Origin: a bacterium
GTDB lineage: Bacteria; Patescibacteriota; Minisyncoccia; Moranbacterales; DUUL01
Direction of reading: 5' to 3'
Assembly: GCA_018675685.1 (NCBI GenBank)
Contig: JABGXP010000020.1
Span: 37,680 to 101,679, forward strand
DNA length: 64,000 nt
Below the pieces are notes generated by a model. That model had not been told where the DNA came from. It was given only the letters and a program-made list of their open reading frames with translations, and searched no databases. Each line of letters starts with the position of its first letter. Within the stretch, counting starts at the first letter, position 1. The position numbers and the translations under genes were made by a program. This document shows positions 2,418 through 57,691 of the stretch, one piece after another.

Positions 2418-2458
2418 AAGTTTATTTGTTAAAAAGGTAAAAAATAAAGTTCAAAGAT

Positions 2459-3337
2459 ATGAAAAGGATGCTTATTATCGTCGAAAACAGTGAAGAAGAA
2501 CAGTATCGTACCCTGAGAATTTTAGAAGAGGCAGAAAAAATGGGCTGCAAAGTTGATCTAATCAATAGCAGCGGAATGAAATTTCTGACAAATAAAGTCT
2601 TTGTCAAAGGAAAAGAACTCTACTTTGAAGAGTATGATGCGATTTATTCAATCGGAAACAGTGATAGACATCACTATTTTATTATGTTAGCAACAATCAA
2701 AACAGGAGTTCGGATTTGGCCTAGCAACAAACATCTTTTAATGAATGACAAGTTTTTCGAAGGAATCTTTTTGGACAATTTAGGAATCAGAACGCCCAAG
2801 ACAATTTTACTAACAAGCAAGGAAAAAGTAGTTGTAGATAAATTAGTAGAAGAAATTGGCGGTTACCCATGTGTTGCAAAGAAGGTTACGGGCTCTGAAG
2901 GAAGATATGTTTGCTTGGTAGAATCTTTTGATGATCTGTATAAATTTCTAGAGAAATTACCACATCCAAGCATTTCAGGAAAGAAAGGCATTCTTTTGCA
3001 AGAATATATAGAAGAATCCAAAGGGACTGATTTTAGGACATATTGCGTTGGTGATGAGATTCTAGGAGCTATTCAAAGAACCTCGCAAACTGATGATTTC
3101 AGAGCTAATGTTTCTTTAGGTGGTGTAGCGGAAAAGATTGAGGTGACAGCTGAAATGGAGGAGTTTTCAAGAAAAATAATGAAAGAAGGAAATTTTTTGT
3201 TTGCTGGAATCGATTTTATTATGAGCAACAGTGGTTTAGTAGCAATTGAAATCAATACATCTGCTGATTTTAAGGGATTTGAAAAAGCCACAGGAATTAA
3301 TGTCGCAGAAAAAATAATCAAAAAGTTTTTAGAATAA
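2459..3337 (+). CDS. RimK-family ATP-grasp ligase (third paralog)
   Basis: 292 aa containing …DFRTYCVGDEILGAIQRTSQTDDFRANVSLGG…VAIEINTSADFKGFEKATGINVAEKII. Confidence 0.65.
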   Translation: MKRMLIIVENSEEEQYRTLRILEEAEKMGCKVDLINSSGMKFLTNKVFVKGKELYFEEYDAIYSIGNSDRHHYFIMLATIKTGVRIWPSNKHLLMNDKFFEGIFLDNLGIRTPKTILLTSKEKVVVDKLVEEIGGYPCVAKKVTGSEGRYVCLVESFDDLYKFLEKLPHPSISGKKGILLQEYIEESKGTDFRTYCVGDEILGAIQRTSQTDDFRANVSLGGVAEKIEVTAEMEEFSRKIMKEGNFLFAGIDFIMSNSGLVAIEINTSADFKGFEKATGINVAEKIIKKFLE

Positions 3338-36484: not shown

Positions 36485-38734
36485 ATGCATAAGACGATTT
36501 ATATCGACATAGACGAAGAAATAACCAGTGTTTTGGATAAAATAAGAGACGAAAAATCTAGTGAGATTTGCATTGTTGTTCCGAAGAACGCAGCCTTGAC
36601 ACAGGGAATTATCAATTTGAAATTGTTGAAAAAAGAGTCGGCTAAGTACGGAAAAACAATAGTAATCGCAACTAACGATCCCCAGGCTAGGAAAGTTATC
36701 AAGCGCCTTGAAATAAAAACACAAGAGATTGCAGAAACTGATTTGAAAGGGAGTAGCGAGTTAAAGAAAGTCGAAAAGACTGAAAAGGAAACTGAGCCAA
36801 TGGAAATCCAAGAGGAAGCAAACAATCAAACTGAAGAACTCAAAGGTGAAATCAAGATGACAAAAGAAGAATTTGTGACCAGCGATATAGGTTCAGAGAC
36901 ATTTTTTGATGGAATTATTCCGGAGCCAATCATTGATGATAAAAAGGAGAACAATATCAAAAGTGATATTAAAAAACAAGAACCAAATTTAATCTCACCG
37001 AATGAATTGCGCGAAGAATTATATCCCAGAAAAACAGATTTTAAGAATGAAAAAGTTCCACAGATAAAGCAGAAAAAAAATAAAGAGACCGTTTCTGCAA
37101 GTTTGGAAGAGATGTCTGATTTGAAGCCAGTAACAACCGTTGATAAACAAAACGACCTAATAAAAAGAGTTGATACAATGGACAGACAAGCTAAAACTGT
37201 CAGAAAAATCACTCCTTCAGAAGGGAAGAATTCTTCCGAAGCAAACCCAGCCATGAAAACAATTCCAAGAGGAGGCAAAACAGTTGTTTCTCGTTCAGTC
37301 GACTTTGGAGATAAAATGCAAGAATCAAAAAAAGGTCCAAGTAACGGAAGAGTATTAGCTACCAGTTTTGATTTGCAGAAGCAATCGTCCGAGGGAGGAG
37401 ATTTCAAGGTAACAGAAGAGCTCAATTTAAAAAGCTTTGATGAAGAAACTTCGAAGAAAGCAGAAGAATTTTTTGGAATAGAGCCCAAGAAACCAAAGGA
37501 GTCCATAAAAGAGATGAAAAAACAAGTAAAGAGGGTTGAGAAGGAAATTGTCCAGTCAAAAAACCAAAAGGGATTTATAAGGCGCTGGGGATTTGCTATT
37601 ATGATAGCCTTTTCATTTGTTGGAATTGGTGGTTTTACTGCTTGGGGGTATATGAATTATCCACAGGCTGAAATTAAAATTCATCCAAGAAAGAAAGATT
37701 TTTCTAAAGAGATTAAAATTTCAGTCAAAGAAGGCGCAGATAAAAGCGGCTTTGAGAAAGGTGTTATTCCAGGGCAATACAAGGAAATGACAGTTCAAAA
37801 GACAATGAAGTTCAATGCTACTGGTGAGACCTACGCGACTGATGATGGAAAAGCAAAAGGAAAAGTTACTATATATAATAAGTATTCAAAAAAAGAACAA
37901 CCCCTTGTTGCGACTACAAGAGTTCTCTCTAAAGAAGGTAAGCTGTTTAGACTTATTAAGGGCGTTACAGTTCCGGGAATGGAAAATGATAATCCTGGCA
38001 CAGTCGAAGCCGCTGTGATTGCTGATAAGCCAGGGGAGGAGTTTAATATCGGTTCTTCCGCTTTTACGATTGAGGGATTTAAGGGGAAACCACAGTATGA
38101 TAAATTTGAAGTGAAATCTTTCGAACCAATGACAGATGGAGGTTCTCCGGATTCAAACAAGAAATTATCCATGATCTCGATAGCTGATATCGCAAGGGCT
38201 CGTGAAAAAACAATTACAGCTTTAGAAAAAAGTCTTGAAGAAGAAGTGAAAGCCCAATTAGGAGTTGAAATGAGTGCGATGTTTGACTCAGTTGAAAAAG
38301 AAATTATAGGAGCTTCTTCTACTAATGAGGTCAAGGATGTCGTGAAAAGTTTTTCATACACTGTTGAGCAAAAAATTAAATTGATTACTTTTCTGACAGC
38401 AGATGTTAATTCAGCCGTACTTCTTGGCATGAGACAGGATGTTGAAGATGGCTATGAAATAGAAGAGTCTGAAAGTAATGTTACTTTCAAAAAAAGTATC
38501 ACTGATCTTGAAAAGAAAACAATGACGATGTATCTAGATTCCTCAGCCACAGCTTGGCCAATAATCGAAGCGGAGCAGTTAGCGCAAAGTATTGCTGAGA
38601 AAAAGGAAGAAGAAATTCGTGTTATCTTGCTAGGATATCCCACAATTGAAAAAATTGAATTTTTAGTGAAACCGTCCTGGTTAACAGGTCTGCCAATTTC
38701 AAAGGACAAGATTGATGTTTCAGTTGTGAAATAG
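36485..38734 (+). CDS. Hypothetical large bitopic membrane protein (cytoplasmic N-terminal domain, one TM helix, large extracytoplasmic C-terminal domain)
   Basis: 749 aa. One hydrophobic helix (…FAIMIAFSFVGIGGFTAWGY…). It lies immediately downstream of the ftsA-like gene. Confidence 0.45.
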   Translation: MHKTIYIDIDEEITSVLDKIRDEKSSEICIVVPKNAALTQGIINLKLLKKESAKYGKTIVIATNDPQARKVIKRLEIKTQEIAETDLKGSSELKKVEKTEKETEPMEIQEEANNQTEELKGEIKMTKEEFVTSDIGSETFFDGIIPEPIIDDKKENNIKSDIKKQEPNLISPNELREELYPRKTDFKNEKVPQIKQKKNKETVSASLEEMSDLKPVTTVDKQNDLIKRVDTMDRQAKTVRKITPSEGKNSSEANPAMKTIPRGGKTVVSRSVDFGDKMQESKKGPSNGRVLATSFDLQKQSSEGGDFKVTEELNLKSFDEETSKKAEEFFGIEPKKPKESIKEMKKQVKRVEKEIVQSKNQKGFIRRWGFAIMIAFSFVGIGGFTAWGYMNYPQAEIKIHPRKKDFSKEIKISVKEGADKSGFEKGVIPGQYKEMTVQKTMKFNATGETYATDDGKAKGKVTIYNKYSKKEQPLVATTRVLSKEGKLFRLIKGVTVPGMENDNPGTVEAAVIADKPGEEFNIGSSAFTIEGFKGKPQYDKFEVKSFEPMTDGGSPDSNKKLSMISIADIARAREKTITALEKSLEEEVKAQLGVEMSAMFDSVEKEIIGASSTNEVKDVVKSFSYTVEQKIKLITFLTADVNSAVLLGMRQDVEDGYEIEESESNVTFKKSITDLEKKTMTMYLDSSATAWPIIEAEQLAQSIAEKKEEEIRVILLGYPTIEKIEFLVKPSWLTGLPISKDKIDVSVVK

Positions 38735-44827: not shown

Positions 44828-44856
44828 AAAAAACCGCTTTTAACAGCGGTTTTTTA
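44828..44856 (+). terminator. Rho-independent terminator after rpsI
   Basis: AACCGCT-TTTAAC-AGCGGTT followed by TTTTT. Confidence 0.7.
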
Positions 44857-44991
44857 TTTGGAAAAATTATTGCAAAAGAGCAAATAGAATAGTAAAATAG
44901 AGATGTACAAAATACTGAACGAATATCGCGCTTGGATTCAAAATGCGTGATTGTTTTGTAGATTAAAATAAGTATAAATTAAAAACAATAG

Positions 44992-47487
44992 ATGCTCAAA
45001 AAAATAATGTCAAAAAAGGTTGCTGTTATGTTCATGTTGATCATGCTACTTGGAGGTTCTCTACGTCTATATAAACTTGGGATGCAGTCATTTATTGCAG
45101 ATGAATTTTTGGGCATTAAGATTTCCACTGGTTATAATAAAACAGGTGAGTGGAAGCACTGGGATTTTAATACCAACGCACCTAGTGGGGAAACTTATAC
45201 GCGAGGGAAGGTTTATTATTGGCAAGTTTCGAAGCTTTTGAATATTCTTCCGACATCAGAAGCAAACTCTCGCTTGGTAAGCGTGGTTTGGGGTATGATT
45301 GCTATGATTACAGTGTTCTTAGCAACATTTTTTATTACAAGAAGCTGGACAATTGCACTTATTGCACTTTTTCTTTCAGCGATGAGTATAACGGAACTTG
45401 CTTATGATAGGAAATTACGTATGTATTCGATGTTTGCTCCTGTTTATCTCTGGTTCTCCTTTGCAGTGTTTAAGTTTTTAGAATACAAAAAAGATTCGAA
45501 ATGCGCTTTTTTTGGAAAATTTTGTAAGGCTAAGAAGGGGGCTGAAAGTAGGTGTGTTATTACAAGGTTTTCCCAGAAAACAGGGTTGGACTGGATGTGG
45601 TTTTTGCCATCACTGATACTAGGATTTTTATCGCTAAAAACACACGACTTAACAGTGAATATTGTGCCCACAATACTCGTTTATCTTCTAGTTATGGGTT
45701 TATTTTTATTCTTTAAAAAGAAACAAAAAAACAATCATTATTTAAGAGTGACAGGCATTTTTGTGCTATCGGGATTAGCCTTAATATCAATTTTGCCGTT
45801 TTTAAAAACAATTCCAATTATTGGATATATTCTTCAAAAAGCAGTTGGCGCAACAAGTGCTGTCGCCTGGGTTTTCCACCCTAGTTATTTGCAGAAAGTG
45901 ACACTTGATTATAGCTACATTCTTTTCGGAATCTTCTTTATTTCAATTGGAGCATACTTAATGATCAGGAAATATGGAAAAATTGGTCTTTGGACAGTAT
46001 TATCATTTCTAGTCCCCTTAGTTTTAGCGATCTTCACTTGGAAAAGGAACGTTGGTGATCAGTATATATACCTCACTCAGCTTTTCAAGGTTATAGTTGT
46101 GGCTTGTGGAATATATTTTGTCTCCCAAGGAATTGCTAAATTATTTAAAAATACTAAAAAAGTATTTATGCTAGTTCTTGGTCTAATCCTCTTGCTTCTA
46201 GTTAATTTTTCTTTTTTCTATTCAGAACACGGATTTTATCAAAGCGTAAAAGAATGGCAACATTCAAATTATCGAGAAGTTTTTGATTATTTTTTGGAAA
46301 AAAAGGGTGAGAATGTAGCACTCTTTGCAAGACCGCTCACCAATTATTATTTAAGAGGGAATAATACCAAATTACTTCCTTATGGTGAAGATAATCAATT
46401 AACAGCTCTGAGAATTTTTGAAGCTCAAAATGAATATGATGAATTGTGGGTGATTTTTTCCAAGAATACTAATATCAAAGGAGATGCAAAGAGATTGATG
46501 GAGCGAGAATTTAAACTTGTAGAAACAAAGTATACCAATAAAAAGGTGAAAGTTTATCGTTGGAAGAAGAACCATGATAAATTGAAAATAGGATTTGTTA
46601 CAGATTCACATTGCTACGCTAAGCAGGACAAGGAATCAAAGAATTGGGAATTGAACTGGCGTTGCAAGGAACCTATGACTGACTTTGTTAATAAAATGAA
46701 TGACGAGTTCAAGCCAGATATGGTTATTGAAGGCGGGGACCTTGTTGATGGCAGGGACGACAATGCTTTTTGGGATTTCAAGGAGGTCAAAGGAATTCTC
46801 GAAAAAGCTAATGCTCCGGTGTACCACGTTCTTGGGAACCACGAAACTCGTTCTTTTCCAAAAAAAGATTGGCTTGATTTAACGGAAAATAAAAAAACTT
46901 ATTATAAAATTGACATAAAGGGTTTCAGGGTGATCGTATTAGATGCGAACTTCACAGCAAAAGGAGAAGATACTACACCTATAAAAGAATCTTACGCAGG
47001 AGTGATCAATCAAGAACAACTAGAGTGGCTAAAAGAAACCCTTATAGATGCAGAAGATCTTCGCAAAATCGTCTTTGTACATCAACCACCGATCGAAACG
47101 GATGCGAGAAAACAATCAGAATTATTCAAAAACTCAGAGGAGTTAAGGAGTCTACTCTCAAAATTTTCCGTAGAAGCCGTTTTCTCTGGGCACATTGAAA
47201 GATTTTGCAAAACTAAACTTGGAACAGACACCGATTATTATGTCTTGCAAGGTTTTTGGAAACAAAACGGAAGGCTGAAGGAAGAGTTCAAATATCCAGA
47301 GGCAGGCACTTTTAGTGAGATTACAATTGGCAAAGACATTGAAGTGAGTGTGAATTATAGGGAAAAAGATGAGACAGAATATAATTCTTTTATAATGAAC
47401 TCTGATAACTCTTCCTGTGAGGACGGGAACACTGTTATTTCCAGGAAGCTTAGAGATGATTACAAAAATAAAAATGAAAATAAATAG
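44992..47487 (+). CDS. Fusion protein: N-terminal GT-C (ArnT/PMT-like) polytopic glycosyltransferase domain and C-terminal calcineurin-like metallophosphoesterase domain
   Basis: N-terminal multi-TM region with a first-loop DE motif (…FIADEF…). C-terminal metallophosphoesterase motifs GFVTDSHC, GGDLVDGRDD and VLGNHE. 831 aa. Confidence 0.6.
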   Translation: MLKKIMSKKVAVMFMLIMLLGGSLRLYKLGMQSFIADEFLGIKISTGYNKTGEWKHWDFNTNAPSGETYTRGKVYYWQVSKLLNILPTSEANSRLVSVVWGMIAMITVFLATFFITRSWTIALIALFLSAMSITELAYDRKLRMYSMFAPVYLWFSFAVFKFLEYKKDSKCAFFGKFCKAKKGAESRCVITRFSQKTGLDWMWFLPSLILGFLSLKTHDLTVNIVPTILVYLLVMGLFLFFKKKQKNNHYLRVTGIFVLSGLALISILPFLKTIPIIGYILQKAVGATSAVAWVFHPSYLQKVTLDYSYILFGIFFISIGAYLMIRKYGKIGLWTVLSFLVPLVLAIFTWKRNVGDQYIYLTQLFKVIVVACGIYFVSQGIAKLFKNTKKVFMLVLGLILLLLVNFSFFYSEHGFYQSVKEWQHSNYREVFDYFLEKKGENVALFARPLTNYYLRGNNTKLLPYGEDNQLTALRIFEAQNEYDELWVIFSKNTNIKGDAKRLMEREFKLVETKYTNKKVKVYRWKKNHDKLKIGFVTDSHCYAKQDKESKNWELNWRCKEPMTDFVNKMNDEFKPDMVIEGGDLVDGRDDNAFWDFKEVKGILEKANAPVYHVLGNHETRSFPKKDWLDLTENKKTYYKIDIKGFRVIVLDANFTAKGEDTTPIKESYAGVINQEQLEWLKETLIDAEDLRKIVFVHQPPIETDARKQSELFKNSEELRSLLSKFSVEAVFSGHIERFCKTKLGTDTDYYVLQGFWKQNGRLKEEFKYPEAGTFSEITIGKDIEVSVNYREKDETEYNSFIMNSDNSSCEDGNTVISRKLRDDYKNKNENK

Positions 47488-49294
47488 AAAAAAAATAGAT
47501 AATCATTTGAAAAAATGGTGGCATCTATACGTCTTAGCGTTGATTGTGCTGGTGGCATTTTTCATTAGAACTTACAACTTCGCAGATTGGATTTATCTGA
47601 AAAGTGACCAAGTGCGTGATATAAAAAAAGTTCAGAGCATTTACGAAGGTGGGCTGGCTGAATTACCACTTTTAGGTCCAAAAGCATCAGGATCCAATCT
47701 TTTTTTGGGACCGATTTTCTATTATTTTCAATATGCATCAGCGGTTTTATTTCAAAGTGTTGAGCCGCACGTACTTGTTTTCCCTGATCTTATCGCCTCG
47801 CTCCTAACTATTCCACTACTATTCTATTTTTTGAGACAATTTTTTTCGAAGAAAATTTCTCTACTAACAGTTGCAGTTTTTGCTTCTTCATATATGTTCA
47901 CGCAATATGCAAGGTTTGGTTGGAATCCGAACTCCCTCCCTTTCTGGGGATTGCTTGCAATGCTCGGAGTTTTCAAGGTTGGAACTGAGAAAGACCGCAA
48001 TAAAGCGGGAAAATGGCTTATCATGTCCGCATTCGCTTTTGGAGTAGTAAGTCAATTACATTTCATTGCATTCCTTGGATATCCAATCGTTACATTTTTG
48101 TTTTGGATTTTTTATCCACCAAAAAAGATTCATCCAAAATTTTGGTTAGCTGCAATTTGTGTATTTTTATTTTTGAATTTACCAATGATTGCAAATGACA
48201 CCATTGGGGGAGGGAATAATTGGAAACATTTTGTTTATACATTAACACACAAAGCTGAGCCAAGAGGGGCCCTAGAAAGCGCTCTAAGAGCTGCTACGTA
48301 TGAAGGAAGGTTCTTTATGGCATTTGTTACATCTATTAACAATAACGAGGTTTCCAAGATAGACTTCATTGGTATTCTATACGTAACAACTTCTATTTTT
48401 TTGGGAGTATTTTTGTGGAAAAAGAAAGCAACTGCTCTGTTCAGGGAGCTTTCCTCAAAACAACGAGCATTTTTAGTCTTTATCTTTGTGTGGCTTGCTG
48501 GTTTCACGCCTTTGTATTGGAAATTAGCGTATGATATAAATAACTCTCGTTTCTGGGCAGTGGTATTCGTTATTCCTTTTGTATCTCTCGCTCTTTATTT
48601 TCAAATTATTTTTCAAATAGGAAAAAACAAAAACTGGCAAAGGGCCTTCCAAGTCACACCATATTTAATCGCAACAATATTGATAATTTTGAATTTTACA
48701 GCAATTGGAAAATGGTATGGAAGTTTAGCAGCGCAAGAAGAAATTGATTTATTCGGAAGAAAGTGGTCAAGTAAAACCTTCCAACAACAGAAGCTAGAAA
48801 CTGTATGGGTGCAAAAAGAAACCTCGAAGTATATGATTGAAGAATCTAGCAAAAAGAATAAAAAGGTTTGCTTTAAATCTCCCAACGTATACTCAGCTGT
48901 GTATAGATATTTTATCAATCAAAATCTTAATGGAGAGGTGGTTGACAGCGGAGATATTGAAAGGGAGACAATTGTAGCACTGGGCAAAGAATGTGAATTT
49001 TTTCTTATCGATAAAGCAGAAAAGAGTAGCAATCAAGCTTTAGCAAAAGTGGGGAAGGGCCTGAAATTAAATGACAAGAAAGCAATAGGCTCTGTAGCTA
49101 TTTGGATTGTTGAATTAGATGGAGACTTTAATGTGAAAAAGGAAAAAAAACAGAGTGTTTTCGAAATAATCCAGCAAGATATTGTAACTGAAATAAAAAT
49201 TGAGGAAAATAAAGAAATAAAAGAGAGAGAAGAAAAAGAAGACAAAAAACCAGAAAGGAAAGAGGATAAGGACTGGGGTGATTTATGGTACTAA
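47456..49294 (+). CDS. GT-C family (ArnT/PMT_2-like) membrane glycosyltransferase
   Basis: Polytopic protein with …DQVRD…LPLLGPKASGS…NPNSLPFWGLL…, a paralog of the 50522–52390 gene. The start is uncertain (ATG at 47456 or 47474; the ORF is open from 47417). It overlaps the upstream gene end. Confidence 0.6.
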   Translation: MITKIKMKINRKKIDNHLKKWWHLYVLALIVLVAFFIRTYNFADWIYLKSDQVRDIKKVQSIYEGGLAELPLLGPKASGSNLFLGPIFYYFQYASAVLFQSVEPHVLVFPDLIASLLTIPLLFYFLRQFFSKKISLLTVAVFASSYMFTQYARFGWNPNSLPFWGLLAMLGVFKVGTEKDRNKAGKWLIMSAFAFGVVSQLHFIAFLGYPIVTFLFWIFYPPKKIHPKFWLAAICVFLFLNLPMIANDTIGGGNNWKHFVYTLTHKAEPRGALESALRAATYEGRFFMAFVTSINNNEVSKIDFIGILYVTTSIFLGVFLWKKKATALFRELSSKQRAFLVFIFVWLAGFTPLYWKLAYDINNSRFWAVVFVIPFVSLALYFQIIFQIGKNKNWQRAFQVTPYLIATILIILNFTAIGKWYGSLAAQEEIDLFGRKWSSKTFQQQKLETVWVQKETSKYMIEESSKKNKKVCFKSPNVYSAVYRYFINQNLNGEVVDSGDIERETIVALGKECEFFLIDKAEKSSNQALAKVGKGLKLNDKKAIGSVAIWIVELDGDFNVKKEKKQSVFEIIQQDIVTEIKIEENKEIKEREEKEDKKPERKEDKDWGDLWY

Positions 49295-49370: not shown

Positions 49371-50498
49371 TTAGTTACGCACTTTCATTTTCCAAACTAA
49401 TTTTGTTGCTAATACAAAATTTAGACCTGTTGCGAAGATAATAGCGATAAAAGCTGAAAGAAGATAAAAAATTCCGAAAGATAAACAAAAGCGATAGATT
49501 GCATAGTTAAAGAGCATAACAAAACCAGAAATCAGATAATAATAGATCATCCTACGGATACTTTCCCTTCTTGACTCTGAACGCTTGTCGCTATATGTGA
49601 AAATTGAATTGATAGAGAAATTGGTCAATATTGAAATTAAAATTGCTATAATATAAGCGATTCCATCTTTGTCTTGATGAAAAATCTCAACAAGAAGGGT
49701 GAGAATCCCAAGATTGACAAAAACCCCACTAAGACCAACTAAACAAAATTTTAAAAACCTTCCTGCTTCGGGAAGTGTGCGAAAAATAAACCAAAGATGA
49801 TTAAAGAATTCCAAGCCTTGGGCAATAGTTGCCTTCGAGTCATCATTTTCGCGTGGTAAAAAAGTGTAAGTGATCTCATCAACCTTGCTATATTTAGCGC
49901 GCATTAGAATTTCAACAAGAATCTTGAAACCTTTAGGTTGTAATTTCACTCCTTCGATAATCTCTTTCTTGAAAAGGAAAAACCCTCCCAACGGATCACT
50001 GGTTTTTCTGGTTTGAATAAAGATAATCTGAGTAAAATATTTCACACCCAAAGAAACTGCTCTTCGGTAGACTCCATAGCAAGTCTTCAAACTCCCAAGA
50101 CCTATTGCACTGCCGCCTTTTGCATAGCGAGTTCCTGCAATGATATCTGAATCAGTTCCCAGCGCTTTTTCTAAAAGTTCGATAACCTTTTCTGGAGGAT
50201 GTTGCAAGTCAGCATCAATGCAACAAATATATTTGCCACTAGCTTCCTTGAAGCCAGCAATAAAAGCTGGAGCGAGACCTTTTCTTGGCCCATTAACTAG
50301 TTTAATACGAGAATCTTTCTTTATTTCATTCTTGATGATTTCAGGAGTGTCATCATTACTATCATCAGCAAAAATAATTTCATAATCATACCCTTTCGAC
50401 TGGAAAGAGGAAGTGATTTTCTCGACTAATATTTTCACATTACCTTTTTCATTGAAGGTTGGAAAGATTATCGAAAGAATTTTTTGTCTTGAAGTCAT
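49371..50498 (-). CDS. GT2 polyprenyl-phosphate sugar synthase (DPM1/GtrB-like) with a C-terminal GtrA-like TM domain
   Basis: …ILSIIFPTFNEKGN…YICCIDADLQHPPEKV… GT2 DxD context, plus a C-terminal four-helix hydrophobic domain. Confidence 0.7.
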   Translation of the reverse strand: MTSRQKILSIIFPTFNEKGNVKILVEKITSSFQSKGYDYEIIFADDSNDDTPEIIKNEIKKDSRIKLVNGPRKGLAPAFIAGFKEASGKYICCIDADLQHPPEKVIELLEKALGTDSDIIAGTRYAKGGSAIGLGSLKTCYGVYRRAVSLGVKYFTQIIFIQTRKTSDPLGGFFLFKKEIIEGVKLQPKGFKILVEILMRAKYSKVDEITYTFLPRENDDSKATIAQGLEFFNHLWFIFRTLPEAGRFLKFCLVGLSGVFVNLGILTLLVEIFHQDKDGIAYIIAILISILTNFSINSIFTYSDKRSESRRESIRRMIYYYLISGFVMLFNYAIYRFCLSFGIFYLLSAFIAIIFATGLNFVLATKLVWKMKVRN

Positions 50499-50521: not shown

Positions 50522-52390
50522 TCATTCCATATTCCTTATTTCTTTGTGTTCCACTCCCTTTTTGTTTCCAACAAAGTCTTTCCAGAAAAGTCTTGGAATT
50601 TTTTCAATTATAATCTCTGGCTCTTTTTTATTTTGAGCAGCTTTGATTGCTTTCATTTTTAAGTGCGCAGTGACTTTTTCTTGATCAATTTTCATTTCAA
50701 AAACCATCAGTTGACCAAATTGTTTTTCAGAAATTTTTGAAAGAAATGGTCGAATTTCTTTTTTGACTGATTTTGTACCACCTCTTTTAGTCACTACAAA
50801 GAAGAGAGTGTTATGACCCTCCAGTTCAGACACTCTATCTGCTAATTTTGATTTTAAAGTGGGGTCCTTTTTTTGAGCTAAGAGATATTTAACGGGAGTT
50901 TTGTATTCGGGCTTGGTGTTAAAGACCACTATTCCTTGATTCCTTTGCTTGTAAAGATGATTAGTGACTCTTTCTAATTGCCCAAGTGTTATCCCGTCTT
51001 GCCTTTTTAGAATAAAAGTTCGGTTTGTTTCGATACTTTTAGTTTGAGAGTCAGCTTGTTCTTTAAACCAAAGTTTAGTTTCACGAATATTTAGTACTAG
51101 GAAAGCAAGAGCAATTAGCCCTACGATAAACCAGTAATACTTGGTAAGTTTTTTATTTTTAAATTCAGCTAAAAAAGAGAACCAAAGCGCTAACATAATA
51201 AAGGGAACTGGGAAGATCGGAGCAAAATAACGAGGACGCAACTGATATGCATTTGGAATTGTGATGATGAAGAACAAACCAGACCATAAGATGAGAATAA
51301 GTAAGAAATTCCTTTTTGAAGATTTCTTTTCTTTTCGGATTTGCCAAAAGGCCAGAAGAAGACTTCCAAATAGCAAAATTGTTCCAAAAGTAACGGTTAT
51401 TGGATCTGCTTTGTTTCCTTGGCGATGACTTTTACCGATAGTAATCAGTGAATATCCTTTGGCTTGTTCTCTGAAATTTCGAACTAATTTCTCCGAAAAA
51501 GTTTTAGTTTTTGATTTCTTCCCAGTCTCAAAAACTTCTTCGTCGATATCAGACCTGTCTGCTACAACTGAGATAAACCTTTTTGTATTATTCCAGTCAG
51601 TTTTTGTTTCGCTTAAAATGACAGGGAGGTAAAGAAATCCAATGATTAAAATGGCCACCAGAGAATAATAAGCAGCACTCTTTGTTAGAAATAATTTCCT
51701 TAAAGAAGTAAATTTTTCTCTAGTAAAAATTGAAGCCTTGCCCTCTAAAATAGCAAAGAAAAGAAGAAAAGCGCCAGAGGTCGCCGTCAGTGAAAAAAGT
51801 CCAAAAAAATGATATTGAGAAGCGATTGCAAAGGCGAATGCCCAAAGAGAAATCCAACCCAACTTATGTTTGAATTTTTTAGCAGCAGTAAATCTTAAGA
51901 GTCCATAGAGCGCAAGCAGGATGAAAAATGGAAGGGAGTTTGGATTCCAAGAAAAACGCGAATGTTGAATAATGATAAAAGAACCAGCATAAAGAGTAGT
52001 CGAGATAAGGGAGAGGTTTCTAGAGAAATAAAGCCTTAAAAATAGAAATAAGAGGGGAATCGTTAAGATTGAAAAAAGCAGATCTGGGTAGGCAAAAACA
52101 TCCGGCGACGTGCTTTGGAAAATTACGCCCGAAAGGTATTGAGTGTAATAATAAGCTGGCCCAAGACGCAAATAATCACCATCGGCCTTTGCAGCTCTTG
52201 GCCCAAGCAAGGGAAGTTCCCCAGGACCATTTTCAATTGCTAAAGAGAGAATAGTCGCGTCACGAGCCTGATCCCATTTAAAAAAAAGCCATTCGTGATA
52301 ATTATATGTTCGCACCCATATTGCCAAAAAAACAATAAGAGAAAGTGCGATTAATGTAAAACGAGCTTTTTTTGTGAGTTTTATTTTCAT
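50522..52390 (-). CDS. GT-C family (ArnT/PMT_2-like) membrane glycosyltransferase, paralog of 47456–49294
   Basis: …DQARD…LPLLGPRAAKADGD…NPNSLPFFILL…, 622 aa, polytopic. Confidence 0.6.
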   Translation of the reverse strand: MKIKLTKKARFTLIALSLIVFLAIWVRTYNYHEWLFFKWDQARDATILSLAIENGPGELPLLGPRAAKADGDYLRLGPAYYYTQYLSGVIFQSTSPDVFAYPDLLFSILTIPLLFLFLRLYFSRNLSLISTTLYAGSFIIIQHSRFSWNPNSLPFFILLALYGLLRFTAAKKFKHKLGWISLWAFAFAIASQYHFFGLFSLTATSGAFLLFFAILEGKASIFTREKFTSLRKLFLTKSAAYYSLVAILIIGFLYLPVILSETKTDWNNTKRFISVVADRSDIDEEVFETGKKSKTKTFSEKLVRNFREQAKGYSLITIGKSHRQGNKADPITVTFGTILLFGSLLLAFWQIRKEKKSSKRNFLLILILWSGLFFIITIPNAYQLRPRYFAPIFPVPFIMLALWFSFLAEFKNKKLTKYYWFIVGLIALAFLVLNIRETKLWFKEQADSQTKSIETNRTFILKRQDGITLGQLERVTNHLYKQRNQGIVVFNTKPEYKTPVKYLLAQKKDPTLKSKLADRVSELEGHNTLFFVVTKRGGTKSVKKEIRPFLSKISEKQFGQLMVFEMKIDQEKVTAHLKMKAIKAAQNKKEPEIIIEKIPRLFWKDFVGNKKGVEHKEIRNME

Positions 52391-52496: not shown

Positions 52497-53945
52497 CTAC
52501 TTGTTTCTAATACTGTCTCTTAAGAGAAGAAAATCTTTCTTCGAAAGTTCTTTTGTGAAGAATAAGAACACGAAATAAACACCGAGGAGTAAAATAGACC
52601 AAAGAATGAATATGAATTTATGTTGAGAGAGGAAGCTGTCAGCAACCACATAAATAAGCCCACTACCGACAAGGTATTTTAGGACAGAAAAGGGTTTAAA
52701 GAAAGAGGCTAGTTTTCTTTGAACAAAAATAATCATAAGAAGCATGACAACAAAAGATGAAACAGAAGTAGCAATTGCTGCTCCGTTTATTCCATACTCT
52801 TGAATTAAATAATAATTAAGAATCGAATTCAATATCATGCCAAATAGAGCTATCCACATAGGAAACTTATTCTTTCCTGCACCGTTGAGTGCAAAAGCAA
52901 GAATGTAAAAAACAACCAGAAAACCTAGTCCAAATGCTAAAATCGAAAGAGGCGCCCCTGCTAAGATATATTGATTTCCAAAAAATAATTGAGATGCTGA
53001 GGTTGAGAAGAACGACAAAAGTGTGACAGCTGGAATAAGCAAGATGAATAAAAATCGCATTGCAAAAGAAAGGATATTTTTTGTTTTTACTAAGTCTTGT
53101 TTTGAAGTAGCCTCAGATATCTTTGGCAACAGAATTATTGTTAGGAAGTAGAAAGCATAAAAGGGTAGTCTACCAATTGTAAGAGCTGCATTATATAATC
53201 CAGTTAATTCGTCACTTCCCAATAAACCTTTCACCATGTATAAATCAATCGAAATCATTATTTCATAGAAAATCATAAAAAGTGTAATTGGCCAGGCAAA
53301 AGAAAGCATTTTCTGCCAAGATATAGGAGATTTTTTATGAGCCTTTTCTTTCCTGAAGGGATCAAGAAAATATGCAAACACAAACACAGACAGTGGTGCC
53401 AACGCATGACCAACAACAGCACCTTTTGTTGAAAATAAAAAACCAAGCGAAATAATGAAGACAATCTTTACAATCCCTCTATAAAACTTAATAAGAGACT
53501 GAGAATTAAATTTATGAATGCCATTAAAATAATAAACATAGAAACTTGCTAGCGCGAAAGCTGGAATTATTGGTGTTGAAATTTTAAAAAGTTGAACCAA
53601 AGAAGGGTCTCCTAAGAGTTTACCTGCAACAGGCGGTACGATAAAATAATACAAAACAGTTACTATCGAAATAAGAATTGTTTGGACGATTGCTCCTGTT
53701 TTTCGCACAGACAAAATTGTGCCAGCATCTTTCTTACGTACCTCACTGAGATATTTACTCATTGCTACTGGAACGCCCCTTCCAACCAAAACAACAATCA
53801 TTGTCGCAAAAGTGATAATGATTCCATAGCGACCATATTCAGCAGGTCCTAAAAAACGACCTAAAAGAGCATGGACAATATAGCCCGAGAGGTTGAAAAC
53901 TAATTCTGCGATTGTCAGCCAAAAAGAGGCTTTGATTAGGGACAT
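52497..53945 (-). CDS. MOP-superfamily oligosaccharide flippase (Wzx/MurJ-like polysaccharide biosynthesis protein)
   Basis: 482 aa with about 12–14 TM helices. The N-terminus resembles the Wzx-like polysaccharide biosynthesis protein family (…LLGRFLGPAEYGRYG…). Confidence 0.55.
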   Translation of the reverse strand: MSLIKASFWLTIAELVFNLSGYIVHALLGRFLGPAEYGRYGIIITFATMIVVLVGRGVPVAMSKYLSEVRKKDAGTILSVRKTGAIVQTILISIVTVLYYFIVPPVAGKLLGDPSLVQLFKISTPIIPAFALASFYVYYFNGIHKFNSQSLIKFYRGIVKIVFIISLGFLFSTKGAVVGHALAPLSVFVFAYFLDPFRKEKAHKKSPISWQKMLSFAWPITLFMIFYEIMISIDLYMVKGLLGSDELTGLYNAALTIGRLPFYAFYFLTIILLPKISEATSKQDLVKTKNILSFAMRFLFILLIPAVTLLSFFSTSASQLFFGNQYILAGAPLSILAFGLGFLVVFYILAFALNGAGKNKFPMWIALFGMILNSILNYYLIQEYGINGAAIATSVSSFVVMLLMIIFVQRKLASFFKPFSVLKYLVGSGLIYVVADSFLSQHKFIFILWSILLLGVYFVFLFFTKELSKKDFLLLRDSIRNK

Positions 53946-53957
53946 CTTAGTAGTTAT

Positions 53958-54563
53958 TTATATTTTCGATATTTCTTTAATTTTCTTGAAAACTTCGCAG
54001 GCAGTTCCTTCTCCGTTTATAAGCTTAATTTCCCAATGCTTTATGAGGTAGTCAAAGATACATTGTTTATTGATAAGAAATTGCTTTCCTTGTTCAATAT
54101 CACGATCGCGAGAAACTGCGACTTCCGGTGAAACCTCAATGAAAAGTGCAATGTCTGGTTTTTTGATTAATTTTTCAGCAAGTCTTTGCCAGGCAGGAAT
54201 TTTTTCTCCATCATTGATTTTCTCTAAATAGCGAATGTTGACAATTTGATCATAAAAATACCTGTCAGTTAAGAGGTAATCATAACCACTAGATAGTTTC
54301 CTGAAGAGTTGATTGAACCTTGTTGCGTCAATAATAAGAGCTATCTTTCTTAGTGTGATTGTAAAACTATTGGCACTCACAACTGCTCTAGCTGGTTTTG
54401 ATGAATTTTCTTTTCTGCGACCAAGAATTTTTTTGGCAATTGAAAACTCTGTAATATGAAAGCGGGATACTTTTTTATTAGCATCCTTTAAGCTTCTCTC
54501 AAGTTTGTCTAGTTGAGTTGTTTTTCCACTCCCATCTAATCCAGAAATTGTAATAAGCTGCAT
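53958..54563 (-). CDS. tmk: Thymidylate kinase-family P-loop kinase
   Basis: P-loop ISGLDGSGKTTQ and DRY-like motif LLTDRYFYDQ. 201 aa. Confidence 0.55.
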   Translation of the reverse strand: MQLITISGLDGSGKTTQLDKLERSLKDANKKVSRFHITEFSIAKKILGRRKENSSKPARAVVSANSFTITLRKIALIIDATRFNQLFRKLSSGYDYLLTDRYFYDQIVNIRYLEKINDGEKIPAWQRLAEKLIKKPDIALFIEVSPEVAVSRDRDIEQGKQFLINKQCIFDYLIKHWEIKLINGEGTACEVFKKIKEISKI

Positions 54564-54575
54564 ATCGAAAGAGTG

Positions 54576-56066
54576 TTAAGCCATTAATACTGCTACGGGC
54601 ATCATTTTTACCACAGGTTTCACTACCTTATTTGCTTCCATCCCAGCTATTGCAAGTGTTGGATCTTTGTAATGTGAAGCATCTTGATTTTCAATTCCTC
54701 TCGAAGCTCCGTTATAAAGACGTACCTTTCTTTTTTCCATTTTCTTCATTAATTCCTCTCGGTTTTCTGGAACTTTTGATGTTTTATCTTTTGATTTTCC
54801 AGTGCCATGAGCCGCGCTGAAAAATGTTTGTTCATTTTCATCTGTCCCCACTCCAAAATAAGCCTCTGTGCTCATTGATGAGGGCATGAAAATTGGCTCT
54901 CCTGTCTCTTCAAAAAGTTTGTGACCCTTCATTTTCTCTGGTCCGTATGCTCTAGTCGCATTACTTCTGTGAACTATCACATCTTCCCCAAAGTGTTTTT
55001 CTTTTGTTGCTGATACATGAGTCATGTCATAGACAAGTTTCAATGCATTTTTCTCCCCAAGAACTTTTTCAATCGCATTTTTCAGATTATACTGAAGTAA
55101 TGTTCTGTTTGCAAAACCATGATTCGCAGCTGCTCGATGTGCATTGAAGTAGTTTTTCCCAAGTTCTGAATTTGCTTTAATTTTGAAAAATTCCTTCGAA
55201 TCGCTATACTTTGGGATAGCTTCTTTAAGAGTTTTATGCCACTCGGTTTTATTGTCCAAGAAAGTGAGTCTAGAAAATTCAGAAATCAATTTTTGGCTGG
55301 AATGTTCTTTCTTCTTGGGTGTATAGAAATAACTAGCATATTGACCAAAAAGTCCTGATCCGGTATGCATTAAAAAAACATACTGATTTTTATGCAAACC
55401 AAATTTAGAAGCCAAATCCTCATCAACAACATCAGTAATTTTCATCAAGTCCAAGAAGTGATTTCCTGCAGCACCCAAGATCCCTGTTCTTAATTGTGCG
55501 ATATGAAAAAAAAGTTTTGGAATTGCTTTATATAAATCTTTATCTGTTACTCTTTCTTCTCCAAACATATTTCCGCCATGTAAAATTCTATCAACTTCGC
55601 CAGTGTCTTCTTTTAGATACTCTAAGAGAGCAATACTACCACGGCGTGAAATATCCATGATTACTTTATAGGGAAGATAGGTCCCCAAGTAAGTTTTAGT
55701 TGGGATTACATTAATTAATTCCTTGAAAAGTCGATCAATTTTTTCTTCTGTTAGGTCATTAGCATCAAAAGGTGTTGAAATTAAACGCATCCCACAATTC
55801 GGAGCAGTGTCTAATAGTTGTGGCATGAAATAATCCTTAGTAGCAACAACCGTGCCAGAAGGGTTCTTTCTTCCAGGTTTCTGACAAACGTCAGTCAACG
55901 CTGCTACGTGTTGAAATACCTCCTTGTTCTTGGCTACTTCAGCCAATTGATCTATCGTTGCTTGATCTGGCATTAATTCATCAGAAACTCCAAAAGACAC
56001 AGACCCTTTTCCTTCTTTCAAATCCAGAGTTTGTTTGAATTTCGATATTTTTTTAACTGTATTCAT
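54576..56066 (-). CDS. rtcB: RtcB-family RNA ligase homolog (divergent)
   Basis: RtcB-like motifs …DTAPNCGMRL…, …HTGSGLFGQ…, …AAGNHFLDL…, …AAHGTGKSK… 496 aa. Confidence 0.5.
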   Translation of the reverse strand: MNTVKKISKFKQTLDLKEGKGSVSFGVSDELMPDQATIDQLAEVAKNKEVFQHVAALTDVCQKPGRKNPSGTVVATKDYFMPQLLDTAPNCGMRLISTPFDANDLTEEKIDRLFKELINVIPTKTYLGTYLPYKVIMDISRRGSIALLEYLKEDTGEVDRILHGGNMFGEERVTDKDLYKAIPKLFFHIAQLRTGILGAAGNHFLDLMKITDVVDEDLASKFGLHKNQYVFLMHTGSGLFGQYASYFYTPKKKEHSSQKLISEFSRLTFLDNKTEWHKTLKEAIPKYSDSKEFFKIKANSELGKNYFNAHRAAANHGFANRTLLQYNLKNAIEKVLGEKNALKLVYDMTHVSATKEKHFGEDVIVHRSNATRAYGPEKMKGHKLFEETGEPIFMPSSMSTEAYFGVGTDENEQTFFSAAHGTGKSKDKTSKVPENREELMKKMEKRKVRLYNGASRGIENQDASHYKDPTLAIAGMEANKVVKPVVKMMPVAVLMA

Positions 56067-57276: not shown

Positions 57277-57691
57277 TGGATAATTCGAATTGTTTTTTTA
57301 AAGCACCTTTTTTATCTTTTTCTTCTCCCCATTGGAAGGAAACAGTGTATTTATTTGAAGCATTTTGAGAAGCTTCCTCGATAATTTTTTCACTTGGTTC
57401 AATGATGAAGTTGCTTCTTGCTGCAACTAAGATTTCCTGAAAATCAATTTGCCTATCATTCACAGAAATAGAGACTAGATATTCAATATTTTCTTCCTCT
57501 GAATTTTCAATATTGATCTTAAGGGCCGAAAGATCGCCCTTTTTAATAGACTCCTTTGAATTTAGAAAGCTAAAAACAGAATAACCAACCACAGCTCTTT
57601 TGTTGATCGCTGTTTCTCCGTGCCACAATAAGAATGTGAGTGGAACGAATAAAATAAAAAACATGTATAGTAAAAGAGTTTTATTTTGCAT
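57266..57691 (-). CDS. Hypothetical protein with an N-terminal TM anchor
   Basis: 141 aa with an N-terminal hydrophobic helix. It overlaps neighbouring genes by a few nucleotides, consistent with an operon. Confidence 0.4.
   Translation of the reverse strand: MQNKTLLLYMFFILFVPLTFLLWHGETAINKRAVVGYSVFSFLNSKESIKKGDLSALKINIENSEEENIEYLVSISVNDRQIDFQEILVAARSNFIIEPSEKIIEEASQNASNKYTVSFQWGEEKDKKGALKKQFELSNEK

What the first reader, a model, noticed from the sequence alone, without database searches (positions are those of the whole stretch)
44992..47487. GT-C membrane glycosyltransferase fused to a calcineurin-like metallophosphoesterase
The N-terminal roughly 500 aa is a polytopic ArnT/PMT-like GT-C domain with a first-loop DE motif. 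The C-terminal roughly 300 aa carries classic metallophosphatase motifs (GDLVDGRDD, GNHE, GH). Coupling a lipid-linked-sugar transferase to a phosphoesterase suggests transfer of a phospho-sugar followed by dephosphorylation, or recycling of the polyprenyl-(pyro)phosphate carrier.
Basis: partly seen in the sequence, partly recalled or inferred. Interest (0 to 1): 0.55.

Follow-up and report, generated by a model that had tools for sequence, protein, structure and literature searches.

The report
Membrane glycosyltransferase fused to outward-facing phosphoesterase
One intact gene of an uncultured Patescibacteria (Moraniibacteriota) bacterium joins a membrane sugar-transferring enzyme to a metal-dependent phosphate-ester-cutting enzyme on the outer face of the membrane. 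The same pairing has arisen several times independently in this group, which points to an undescribed step in building the cell surface, though what the second enzyme cuts is unknown.

Summary
Window 44992-47487 (+) is one uninterrupted 831-aa ORF. Residues 1-410 form an 11-helix GT-C glycosyltransferase with an invariant D37-E38 in the first outer loop. The AF2 model has pLDDT 92, and the top 39 Foldseek PDB hits are all GT-C enzymes. Residues 411-525 are the family's own outer soluble domain. Residues 531-~805 are a calcineurin-like metallophosphoesterase (MPE; Pfam E=3.4e-16) with all metal ligands conserved and motif V reading GHxE.

In the closest non-fused relatives the two halves are adjacent, co-directional genes 0-16 nt apart. 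The free-standing MPE there carries a signal anchor, lipobox or Tat signal. The fusion removed exactly that anchor, so the MPE stays outside the cell. The same MPE subfamily is also fused to a second GT-C family (PMT_2, homologous to the window's neighbouring genes), and a shorter MPE type is fused to the first family.

The gene sits in a conserved Moraniibacteriota envelope-glycan cluster containing GT2-GtrA, 2-4 GT-C paralogues and Wzx. A functional link is therefore well supported, but the phosphoester substrate is not. My best guess is trimming of a phosphate or phosphodiester on the shared envelope acceptor. Carrier-lipid (Und-PP or Und-P-glycan) hydrolysis is the main rival. This is a new variant of known kinds, of moderate interest.

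The parts
44992..47487 (+). Whole fused gene, 831 aa (GT-C::metallophosphoesterase). NCBI annotates the start 5 codons downstream (826 aa).
44992..46221 (+). GT-C transmembrane domain, aa 1-410, about 11 TM helices, N-terminus inside.
   Evidence: Hydropathy and positive-inside counts; AF2 helices; Foldseek hits to GT-C only
45100..45105 (+). Codons for D37-E38, the putative catalytic acidic pair in the first extracytoplasmic loop (aa 27-91).
   Evidence: Invariant in 81 homologues; lies between TM1 and TM2
46222..46566 (+). The GT-C family's own C-terminal alpha/beta soluble domain, aa 411-525. It is present in all N-terminal-only homologues, which end at about the ...VYRW motif.
46567..46581 (+). 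Fusion junction KNHDK (aa 526-530). It lies between the last strand of the GT-C soluble domain and the first strand of the MPE. The signal anchor and linker of free-standing MPEs (about 45-60 aa) is absent.
46582..47406 (+). Calcineurin-like metallophosphoesterase domain, aa 531-~805. Ligands are D538, H540, D583, N616, H617, H697, H734 and E736. Cys541/558 and Cys739/809 are co-conserved.
47407..47484 (+). Low-confidence charged C-terminal tail (aa 806-831), not conserved.
   Evidence: pLDDT 43-59
44832..44859 (+). Hairpin plus T-run after rpsI (AACCGCT-6 nt-AGCGGTT, then TTTTATTT), read by eye. A promoter-like TTGCAA-17-TAAAAT lies at 44870-44898. Together these suggest the fused gene starts its own transcription unit.
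   Evidence: Sequence. The terminator scan did not list the hairpin; the promoter match is listed there as a consensus match only.
47474..49294 (+). Downstream GT-C paralogue (Pfam PMT_2). The likely ATG at 47474 overlaps the fused gene's end by 14 nt; the mechanical ORF starts at GTG 47417. It is homologous to the N-terminal halves of class-B fusions.
49371..50498 (-). GT2 + GtrA/DPMS-TM protein, an ArnC/GtrB/DPMS-like candidate polyprenyl-phosphate-sugar synthase.
50522..52390 (-). Third GT-C paralogue (weak PMT_2/PMT hits), also homologous to class-B fusion N-termini.
52497..53945 (-). Wzx/MurJ-type (MOP) flippase, conserved convergent to the GT-C gene in 57 of 80 related loci.

Best explanation
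The gene encodes a bifunctional envelope enzyme.

Shown or strongly inferred: an 11-TM GT-C glycosyltransferase has its D37-E38 catalytic loop and its C-terminal soluble domain on the outer face of the membrane. A 5-residue junction tethers that soluble domain to a catalytically intact dimetal phosphoesterase, which therefore also sits outside, next to the membrane surface. The fusion arose from two adjacent operon genes by an in-frame loss of the stop codon, the intergenic spacer and the phosphoesterase's own signal anchor.

Inferred function: the GT-C half transfers a sugar from a polyprenyl-phosphate-sugar, made by the neighbouring GT2-GtrA enzyme, onto a surface glycan or glycoconjugate built by the surrounding Wzx/GT4/GT2 cluster. 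The phosphoesterase half hydrolyses a phosphate or phosphodiester-linked substituent on that same acceptor or product. This would either expose or finish the glycosylation site. The logic parallels lipid A 1-/4'-phosphatases working with ArnT-type GT-C enzymes, or the metallophosphoesterase PGAP5 trimming GPI glycans built by GT-C mannosyltransferases.

The confidence below (0.4) is for this acceptor-trimming mechanism. The narrower claims of a real fusion, an outward-facing MPE and a functional link are much firmer, roughly 0.85-0.9.
For: The ORF is intact and found in independent assemblies. GT-C fold and invariant DE. MPE domain and ligands.

Outside location rests on five lines:
- Odd TM count with positive-inside bias: 20 K/R in 60 residues of inside loops against 7 in 44 residues of short outside loops.
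- 59 of 74 free-standing homologues have an N-terminal K/R-plus-hydrophobic anchor. Some have lipoboxes, and distant ones have Tat motifs.
- The anchor is precisely absent in the fused forms.
- Two co-conserved Cys pairs.
- GT-C enzymes generally place their C-terminal domain outside (established knowledge).

Operon origin: in L004, L006 and L010-L016 the MPE gene follows the GT-C gene by 0-16 nt on the same strand.

Functional coupling: the same MPE subfamily is fused to a different GT-C family (PMT_2), homologous to the window's neighbouring genes, in at least 10 clusters at 50% identity. A shorter MPE type is fused to the first family.

The cluster is conserved in 80 species-level loci.

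Acceptor-directed rather than carrier-directed:
- The MPE is accessory (31 of 80 loci).
- It is multi-copy.
- It has catalytically degenerate paralogues fused to a repeat or propeller-like domain.
- GT2-GtrA implies monophosphate-linked donors.
Against: No substrate evidence of any kind exists. The MPE's nearest characterised relatives (GpdQ, Rv0805, CpdA/SpdA, purple acid phosphatases, zebrafish 2nxf) are promiscuous and distant: 15-18% identity in structure alignments, and NCBIfam scores far below cutoffs. The acceptor polymer is unknown. The full-length model's pTM falls to 0.76 from 0.92 for the N-terminal half alone, so domain packing is uncertain, and no coordinates were available to measure distances between active sites. 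One relative keeps only a 5'-truncated gene (TM9-11 + MPE), so the MPE may work without the GT-C half. Fusion of operon neighbours can also be selected merely for co-localisation.
Confidence: 0.4

Rival explanations
1. Carrier-lipid phosphoesterase. The MPE domain acts on the polyprenyl carrier at the outer leaflet. It would either dephosphorylate polyprenyl-PP released when PP-linked glycans flipped by the conserved Wzx are consumed, or hydrolyse stalled polyprenyl-P(P)-glycans to free polyprenyl-P. Fusion to the GT-C half would place it where the lipid product emerges.
For: A metallophosphoesterase (UpsH/YpbG) that liberates UndP from UndPP-linked polymers is published (PMC11898649). An envelope phosphatase can serve both lipid A and C55-PP (LpxE, PMC6581854 abstract). 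Wzx is conserved beside the GT-C gene in 57 of 80 loci. The best fold matches of the GT-C half include PP-donor enzymes (PglB, STT3). The top structural match of the MPE half is 2nxf, a protein I recall as related to ADP-ribose/CDP-alcohol diphosphatases; that is my own knowledge and was not checked here. Fusion to any GT-C paralogue fits a shared lipid substrate.
Against: The cluster's GT2-GtrA enzyme implies monophosphate-linked donors, whose use leaves polyprenyl-P with nothing to dephosphorylate. The MPE is absent from most related clusters (49 of 80 loci), which is unexpected for an essential recycling step. UpsH belongs to another MPE branch and acts on the cytoplasmic face; the only related NCBIfam model hit, YaeI, scores E=0.038 at 13 bits against a cutoff of 188. 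Degenerate propeller-fused paralogues suggest a macromolecular ligand.
Confidence: 0.27
2. No mechanistic coupling. The MPE is a surface nutrient-scavenging phosphodiesterase or nucleotidase, acting on nucleotides, glycerophosphodiesters or host and environmental phosphoesters, as would suit auxotrophic Patescibacteria. The GT-C protein simply replaced its membrane anchor.
For: The closest sequence families are cyclic-nucleotide and glycerophosphodiester phosphodiesterases: SpdA 1.8e-16, CpdA 2.6e-11, GpdQ and Rv0805 about 4e-7. Free-standing forms are anchored or secreted on their own. A truncated gene keeps only the last TMs plus the MPE.
Against: Tight operon adjacency (0-16 nt) recurs. Fusion is specifically to GT-C proteins of two families plus a third MPE type. 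The gene sits inside a conserved glycan cluster. Random anchoring would not be expected to pick GT-C partners repeatedly.
Confidence: 0.15
3. Donor processing, the first reader's option 1. The GT-C half transfers a phosphorylated sugar, or uses a phosphorylated polyprenyl-P-sugar, and the MPE removes that phosphate afterwards.
For: Only the domain combination itself. A cytoplasmic analogue exists in decaprenyl-phosphoryl-5-phosphoribose dephosphorylation in mycobacteria (my own knowledge, not checked here).
Against: Nothing in the cluster suggests a sugar kinase or a phospho-sugar donor. The known precedent uses a PAP2 enzyme on the cytoplasmic face.
Confidence: 0.06
4. Assembly or annotation artefact: two genes wrongly joined.
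For: None found.
Against: The same fusion is present in at least 4 divergent sequences (62-100% identity) from independent samples and assemblers. The junction lacks the anchor-coding segment rather than a single stop codon. The AF2 model is confident across the junction, with pLDDT 82-93.
Confidence: 0.01

Closest known systems
ArnT / PMT_2-type GT-C glycosyltransferases (GT83/GT39-like; e.g. C. metallidurans ArnT, 5ezm/5f15)
   Same: Polytopic GT-C fold (TM-score 0.55-0.56 both ways). Acidic pair in the first outer loop. C-terminal outer soluble domain. Partnered with a GT2 polyprenyl-phosphate-sugar synthase.
   Different: No Pfam PMT_2/PMT hit for this protein and no sequence-profile hit to any PDB chain. 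About 11 rather than 13 TM helices. Carries an extra enzyme domain. Acceptor unknown; Patescibacteria have no lipid A.
Oligosaccharyltransferases AglB/PglB/STT3
   Same: Best Foldseek E-values (3.7e-8 to 1e-6). Same GT-C_A core.
   Different: No WWDxG motif. The C-terminal domain is unrelated. About 10-12% identity.
GpdQ / Rv0805 / CpdA-SpdA class-III phosphodiesterases (calcineurin-like, COG1409)
   Same: Fold and all dimetal ligands. Best sequence and structure matches for the C-terminal half.
   Different: Those enzymes are soluble and mostly cytoplasmic. Here the domain is extracytoplasmic and membrane-tethered. Motif V is GHxE rather than GHxH (62 of 75 family members). There are two conserved Cys pairs. 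NCBIfam scores are far below the equivalog cutoffs.
UpsH (YpbG) of Bacillus subtilis, the UndPP-polymer hydrolase (PMC11898649)
   Same: A metallophosphoesterase linked to polyprenyl-carrier glycopolymer pathways. It gives a precedent for a lipid-carrier substrate.
   Different: A different MPE branch (COG1408). It acts on the cytoplasmic face, is not fused to a GT, and is stress-regulated. No meaningful similarity was detected here.
Lipid A phosphatase plus GT-C pairs (LpxE/LpxF with ArnT-, FlmK- or Rgt-type enzymes), and PGAP5 in GPI remodelling
   Same: The logic of an outer-face or luminal phosphoesterase acting on the same glycolipid that GT-C enzymes decorate with polyprenyl-P-sugars.
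   Different: LpxE and LpxF are PAP2 enzymes, not MPEs. None of these is fused to the GT. The organisms and substrates differ. This is an analogy from established knowledge, not tested here.

Membership tests
GT-C glycosyltransferase superfamily (GT-C_A fold) | Polytopic membrane core with the GT-C fold | tested here: met
   AF2 pLDDT 92.2, pTM 0.92. The top 39 Foldseek PDB hits are all GT-C, E down to 3.7e-8, TM-score up to 0.56.
GT-C glycosyltransferase superfamily (GT-C_A fold) | Conserved acidic catalytic residue(s) in the first extracytoplasmic loop | tested here: met
   D37 and E38 are invariant in 81 homologues and lie between TM1 and TM2.
GT-C glycosyltransferase superfamily (GT-C_A fold) | Uses a polyprenyl-phosphate-linked sugar donor | not testable with these tools
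   Context only: a GT2+GtrA_DPMS_TM gene lies 1.9 kb away and recurs in related clusters.
Pfam PMT_2 (PF13231) / GT39-GT83 sequence families | HMM score above the gathering threshold | tested here: not met
   No hit at E<=0.1 for this protein. 7 of 81 relatives hit, best 1.1e-7. NCBIfam TIGR03663 scores only 28 bits against a cutoff of 126.
Oligosaccharyltransferase (STT3/PglB/AglB) | WWDxG motif in the C-terminal domain | tested here: not met
   No WWD or W[WYF]D[YWF]G anywhere in the protein.
Calcineurin-like metallophosphoesterase (PF00149) | HMM score above the gathering threshold | tested here: met
   60.7 bits against 21.5, E=3.4e-16, aa 531-735.
Calcineurin-like metallophosphoesterase (PF00149) | Five metal-binding motifs: DxH, GD, GNH(D/E), H, GHxH | tested here: met
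   D538, H540, D583, N616-H617, H697 and H734 are invariant or >90% conserved. The last His of motif V is Glu (E736) in 62 of 75 members and His in 13 of 75.
Calcineurin-like metallophosphoesterase (PF00149) | Beta-sandwich MPE fold | tested here: met
   The full-length model (pLDDT 91) matches 2nxf, GpdQ, Rv0805 and purple acid phosphatases at E 1e-10 to 1e-8, with target TM-score 0.6-0.74.
CpdA / SpdA cyclic-nucleotide phosphodiesterase equivalogs | NCBIfam equivalog cutoff | tested here: not met
   SpdA 60.6 bits against 400; CpdA 43.5 bits against 225.
UpsH/YpbG-type UndPP-polymer hydrolase | Sequence membership in the YpbG/YaeI (COG1408) branch, acting at the cytoplasmic face | tested here: inconclusive
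   No YpbG sequence was compared directly. The related YaeI model scores E=0.038, 13.4 bits against 188. The predicted location is outside, whereas the paper places UpsH on the cytoplasmic face.

The most novel reading that the evidence does not exclude
GT-C::MPE proteins define a new class of bifunctional extracytoplasmic envelope enzymes. In this class a dimetal phosphoesterase is mechanistically coupled to polyprenyl-phosphate-dependent glycosyl transfer. It would either swap a phosphate or phosphodiester for a sugar on a surface glycoconjugate in a single enzyme, or be the first outer-face metallophosphoesterase that regenerates polyprenyl-phosphate. In the second case it would replace or supplement BacA/PAP2 enzymes in reduced Patescibacteria genomes.
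Probability: 0.3. Interest if true: 0.75.

Novelty: new variant of a known kind. Interest (0 to 1): 0.55.

Why it matters
Patescibacteria make up a large share of bacterial diversity, yet the chemistry of their envelope is essentially unknown. Here a surface phosphoesterase has been fused repeatedly and independently to lipid-linked-sugar transferases inside a conserved glycan cluster. This is a "Rosetta-stone" signal: when two proteins are fused in some genomes, they probably work together in the others. It implies that a phosphoester-cleaving step belongs to an extracytoplasmic glycosylation pathway. If the target is the acceptor, the fusion reveals a new glycan-remodelling reaction. If the target is the carrier lipid, it adds an outer-face metallophosphoesterase route to polyprenyl-phosphate recycling, a pathway of antibiotic interest. 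The soluble domain (aa 526-831) is a tractable target for biochemistry.

Tried and rejected
- **Pfam or NCBIfam assignment of the N-terminal half.** No Pfam hit was found, only a sub-threshold Agl23/TIGR03663 match.
- **Family profile (81 sequences) against all PDB sequences.** Nothing at E<=10.
- **hhalign of the family against the neighbouring PMT_2 protein.** Only a 36-column TM1/loop match with probability 2%.
- **One combined alignment of N-terminal-only, C-terminal-only and fused proteins (A1).** MAFFT smeared the C-terminal-only sequences across the whole length, giving about 15% identity. I rebuilt it with fewer N-terminal-only sequences (A4).
- **Literature.** No paper links Candidate Phyla Radiation bacteria with metallophosphoesterases. 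Only one paper mentions GT-C together with a metallophosphoesterase, and it does not describe a fusion.
- **OST identity.** Considered and rejected because there is no WWDxG motif.
- **Artefactual fusion.** Considered and rejected.
- **A second MPE or a second copy of this GT-C family in the window.** None found.
- **Not possible with these tools.** Model coordinates and PAE were not available, so the distance between the two active sites could not be measured. Whole-genome presence or absence of BacA/PAP2 could not be checked either.
Full report
**1. What is at the coordinates**

Window 44992..47487 (+) is a single ATG-initiated ORF of 831 codons with no internal stop. It follows the rpoA-rplQ-rplM-rpsI genes. 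A hairpin plus T-run, visible by eye at 44832-44859, and a promoter-like match at 44870-44898 (a consensus match only) separate it from rpsI. The window has about 35% GC.

An identical protein is deposited as a hypothetical protein of an uncultured bacterium. That annotation is 826 aa because its start lies five codons downstream. Fused proteins at 74%, 72% and 62% identity come from other samples and assemblers. The fusion is therefore not an assembly artefact.

**2. The C-terminal half is a catalytically intact metallophosphoesterase (MPE)**

- Pfam Metallophos matches aa 531-735 at E=3.4e-16.
- Against PDB sequences, the best hits are the glycerophosphodiesterase GpdQ and the phosphodiesterase Rv0805, at E about 4e-7.
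- In the full-length AF2 model (mean pLDDT 91.0), this half matches zebrafish dimetal phosphatase 2nxf, GpdQ, Rv0805, Lmo2642 and purple acid phosphatases at E 1e-10 to 1e-8.
- In an alignment of 75 homologues, D538, D583, N616, H617, H697 and H734 are invariant and H540 is >90% conserved.
- The final His of motif V is Glu (GHIE) in 62 of 75 members. The canonical GHxH survives only in distant homologues.
- NCBIfam equivalog models for CpdA and SpdA score far below their cutoffs. No specific substrate can be transferred from known families.

**3. The N-terminal half is a GT-C glycosyltransferase, by fold rather than by HMM**

Pfam gives no PMT_2 hit for this protein, and only 7 of 81 family members reach one. 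A family profile finds nothing among PDB sequences.

The AF2 model of aa 1-525, built on 81 sequences, is very confident (pLDDT 92.2, pTM 0.92). Its top 39 Foldseek PDB matches are exclusively GT-C enzymes: AglB, ALG9, STT3, PglB, ArnT (TM-score 0.56/0.55), AftA, Pmt4, DPY19, Emb and AftD. Unrelated transporters appear only at E>0.1.

D37-E38, in the loop after TM1, is invariant across the family, as is a block of Trp/Arg/Tyr residues. There is no WWDxG motif, so the protein is not an oligosaccharyltransferase. Residues 411-525 form an alpha/beta soluble domain that every stand-alone homologue also has.

**4. Topology: the phosphoesterase is outside**

- Hydropathy and the AF2 helices give 11 TM segments. 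Inside loops hold 20 K/R in 60 residues, and short outside loops hold 7 in 44. This places the N-terminus inside and the C-terminus outside. GT-C enzymes generally have their catalytic first loop and C-terminal domain outside (established knowledge).
- Independently, 59 of 74 free-standing homologues of the MPE begin with a K/R-rich segment followed by a hydrophobic anchor. Several have lipoprotein boxes (…LFSGC…). The distant ones carry twin-arginine motifs (…TRRxFLK…).
- The free-standing orthologue in L001 most likely starts at an upstream TTG, which gives MKKNKLYICLMLTVVFTVAFLF (read by eye).
- In every fused protein this anchor and its linker are missing. The GT-C soluble domain (…KVKVYRW) runs into the first MPE strand (LKIGFVTD) through about 5-6 residues. 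Keeping the anchor would have flipped the MPE into the cytoplasm, so its precise loss argues that the outside location is selected.
- Two co-conserved cysteine pairs (541/558 and 739/809) fit an extracytoplasmic protein. This is inference; the distances were not measured.

**5. Origin and recurrence of the fusion**

Among 80 species-level genome loci carrying the N-terminal family, all Moraniibacteriota/Patescibacteria, the ten closest (at least 41% identity) break down as follows:
- one is fused;
- seven have an orthologous MPE gene 0-16 nt downstream on the same strand;
- one has it upstream;
- one has none.

Look-ups of individual relatives show the same GT-C–MPE(–MPE)–PMT_2 gene order. A variant has PMT_2 in between.

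An exhaustive HMMER search of 1.84 billion representative proteins with the MPE domain alone found 2098 hits. Among them are about a dozen 797-833-aa proteins with the MPE at the same C-terminal position. These fall into classes:
- **Class A.** P0210 and P0217, plus the fragment P0215, have the window's GT-C family as their N-terminus (34-40% identity).
- **Class B.** The others I compared (nine full-length proteins, plus the fragment P0152) have a PMT_2 N-terminus. It is homologous not to the fused protein's N-terminus but to the two GT-C genes next door in the window, 47417-49294 and 50522-52390, at E 1e-25 to 1e-48.
- **Class C.** A third type joins the window's GT-C family to a shorter, more distant MPE that keeps a canonical SGHWH motif (L056, L085).

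Stand-alone relatives at 63% identity are closer to the window protein than the fused P0210 at 40% is. Several independent fusion events are therefore the parsimonious reading. A formal tree was not built.

**6. Genomic setting**

The downstream PMT_2 gene probably starts at ATG 47474, overlapping the fused gene by 14 nt. It is followed by:
- a GT2+GtrA/DPMS-TM protein (ArnC/GtrB-like);
- a third GT-C;
- a Wzx/MurJ-type flippase;
- tmk and rtcB;
- two GT4 genes;
- a DUF1616/DUF6541 membrane protein;
- a GT2;
- a UDP-glucose dehydrogenase.

Across the 80 loci the core order [GT2-GtrA]–PMT_2–GT-C–(MPE), convergent with Wzx–RtcB–DUF1616, is conserved. Counts are PMT2b 59, Wzx 57, RtcB 45, MPE 31, DUF1616 31, PMT2a 25 and GT2-GtrA 20. 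The window has no second MPE and no second copy of this GT-C family. Elsewhere it encodes a class A PBP and DXP synthase, so the organism makes peptidoglycan and has the first enzyme of the isoprenoid (MEP) pathway.

**7. Mechanism**

Shown:
- The ORF is fused and intact.
- It has a GT-C fold with a conserved acidic loop.
- The dimetal site is intact.
- The two halves derive from adjacent operon genes.
- Independent fusions recur.
- The gene sits in a conserved glycan cluster.

Strongly inferred: the MPE is extracytoplasmic and held close to the GT-C outer domain by a very short linker. Relative orientation is uncertain, because pTM is 0.76 for the whole protein against 0.92 for the N-terminal half.

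Inferred only: the chemistry. I favour hydrolysis of a phosphate or phosphodiester on the shared acceptor or product (confidence about 0.4), for four reasons:
- The MPE is accessory and multi-copy.
- It has catalytically degenerate, repeat-domain-fused paralogues, for example GNHE→GGAEE in L001:5780-7945. That suggests a macromolecular ligand.
- It fuses indifferently to any GT-C of the cluster.
- The cluster's GT2-GtrA implies monophosphate-linked donors that need no pyrophosphatase.

The main rival (about 0.27) is action on the carrier lipid. Its support is the UpsH precedent (PMC11898649), LpxE's dual lipid A/C55-PP activity (PMC6581854 abstract) and the conserved Wzx. A scavenging phosphodiesterase that merely borrowed an anchor gets about 0.15. 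It fits the nearest sequence families and the 5'-truncated gene in L007, but it does not explain the repeated choice of GT-C partners.

**8. Comparison with known systems, and novelty**

Both domains belong to well-known superfamilies. The N-terminal half fails sequence membership in PMT_2/GT39/GT83, and the C-terminal half fails all equivalog tests. I found no paper describing a GT-C–metallophosphoesterase fusion. This is therefore a new variant of known kinds: an uncharacterised, recurrent domain architecture found here only in Patescibacteria.

Interest is moderate at 0.55. The evidence for functional coupling is unusually clean and leads directly to experiments. However, the components are ordinary and the substrate is unknown.

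Noticed in passing
L001:5780-7945 (also the 712-742-aa ORFs in L009-L014): A signal-anchored paralogue in the same cluster has a degenerate MPE domain (GNHE replaced by GGAEE; 29% identity to the window's MPE). It is followed by about 450 aa of repeats that look propeller-like. It may be a pseudo-enzyme or binding protein.
   Followed up: partly
L007:5470-6957 (P0088): A 5'-truncated copy of the fused gene. Only aa 336-825 survive (the last TMs, the soluble domain and the MPE), next to unrelated genes. It is either a pseudogene or a minimal anchored MPE.
   Followed up: partly
L056:9965-12136; L085:6251-8443 and L085:9995-12130: Tandemly triplicated copies of the GT-C family. One or two copies are fused to a shorter, more distant MPE that keeps a canonical SGHWH motif, and a convergent free MPE gene lies 8-10 nt away.
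   Followed up: partly
L027:3034-5745, L030:2846-5581, L068:2989-5811: ORFs of 904-941 aa in the same clusters whose C-terminal region gives a split, weak MPE match and lacks the DxH and GNH motifs. Phmmer recovered a PMT_2-type N-terminus only for the L027 ORF. They may be degenerate fusions.
   Followed up: no
window 47474-47487: The likely ATG start of the downstream PMT_2 gene overlaps the fused gene's stop region by 14 nt, suggesting translational coupling. The mechanical ORF call starts at GTG 47417.
   Followed up: partly
window 53958-56066 (and 45 of 80 related loci): Thymidylate kinase and the RNA ligase RtcB sit, conserved, in the middle of the envelope-glycan cluster between Wzx and the GT4 genes. 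No explanation.
   Followed up: no
window 57681-59624: A 647-aa DUF1616/DUF6541 polytopic membrane protein, conserved in 31 of 80 related loci. It is a candidate polymerase or a further GT-C-like enzyme of the cluster.
   Followed up: no
window 618-3337: Three tandem RimK-like ATP-grasp genes (286, 312 and 292 aa).
   Followed up: no
window 36485-38734: A 749-aa ORF with no Pfam hit at E<=0.001, downstream of an FtsA/PilM-like gene.
   Followed up: no
L012, L014-L017 and many other loci: Many MAG records titled 'uncultured Bdellovibrionales bacterium' carry this Moraniibacteriota-type cluster. The record taxonomy is probably wrong.
   Followed up: no
window 47197-47199 (E736 codon); alignment A3: The MPE clade close to the window protein replaces the last His of motif V with Glu (GHxE, 62 of 75 members) and gains two co-conserved Cys pairs. 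The distant homologues keep GHxH.
   Followed up: partly
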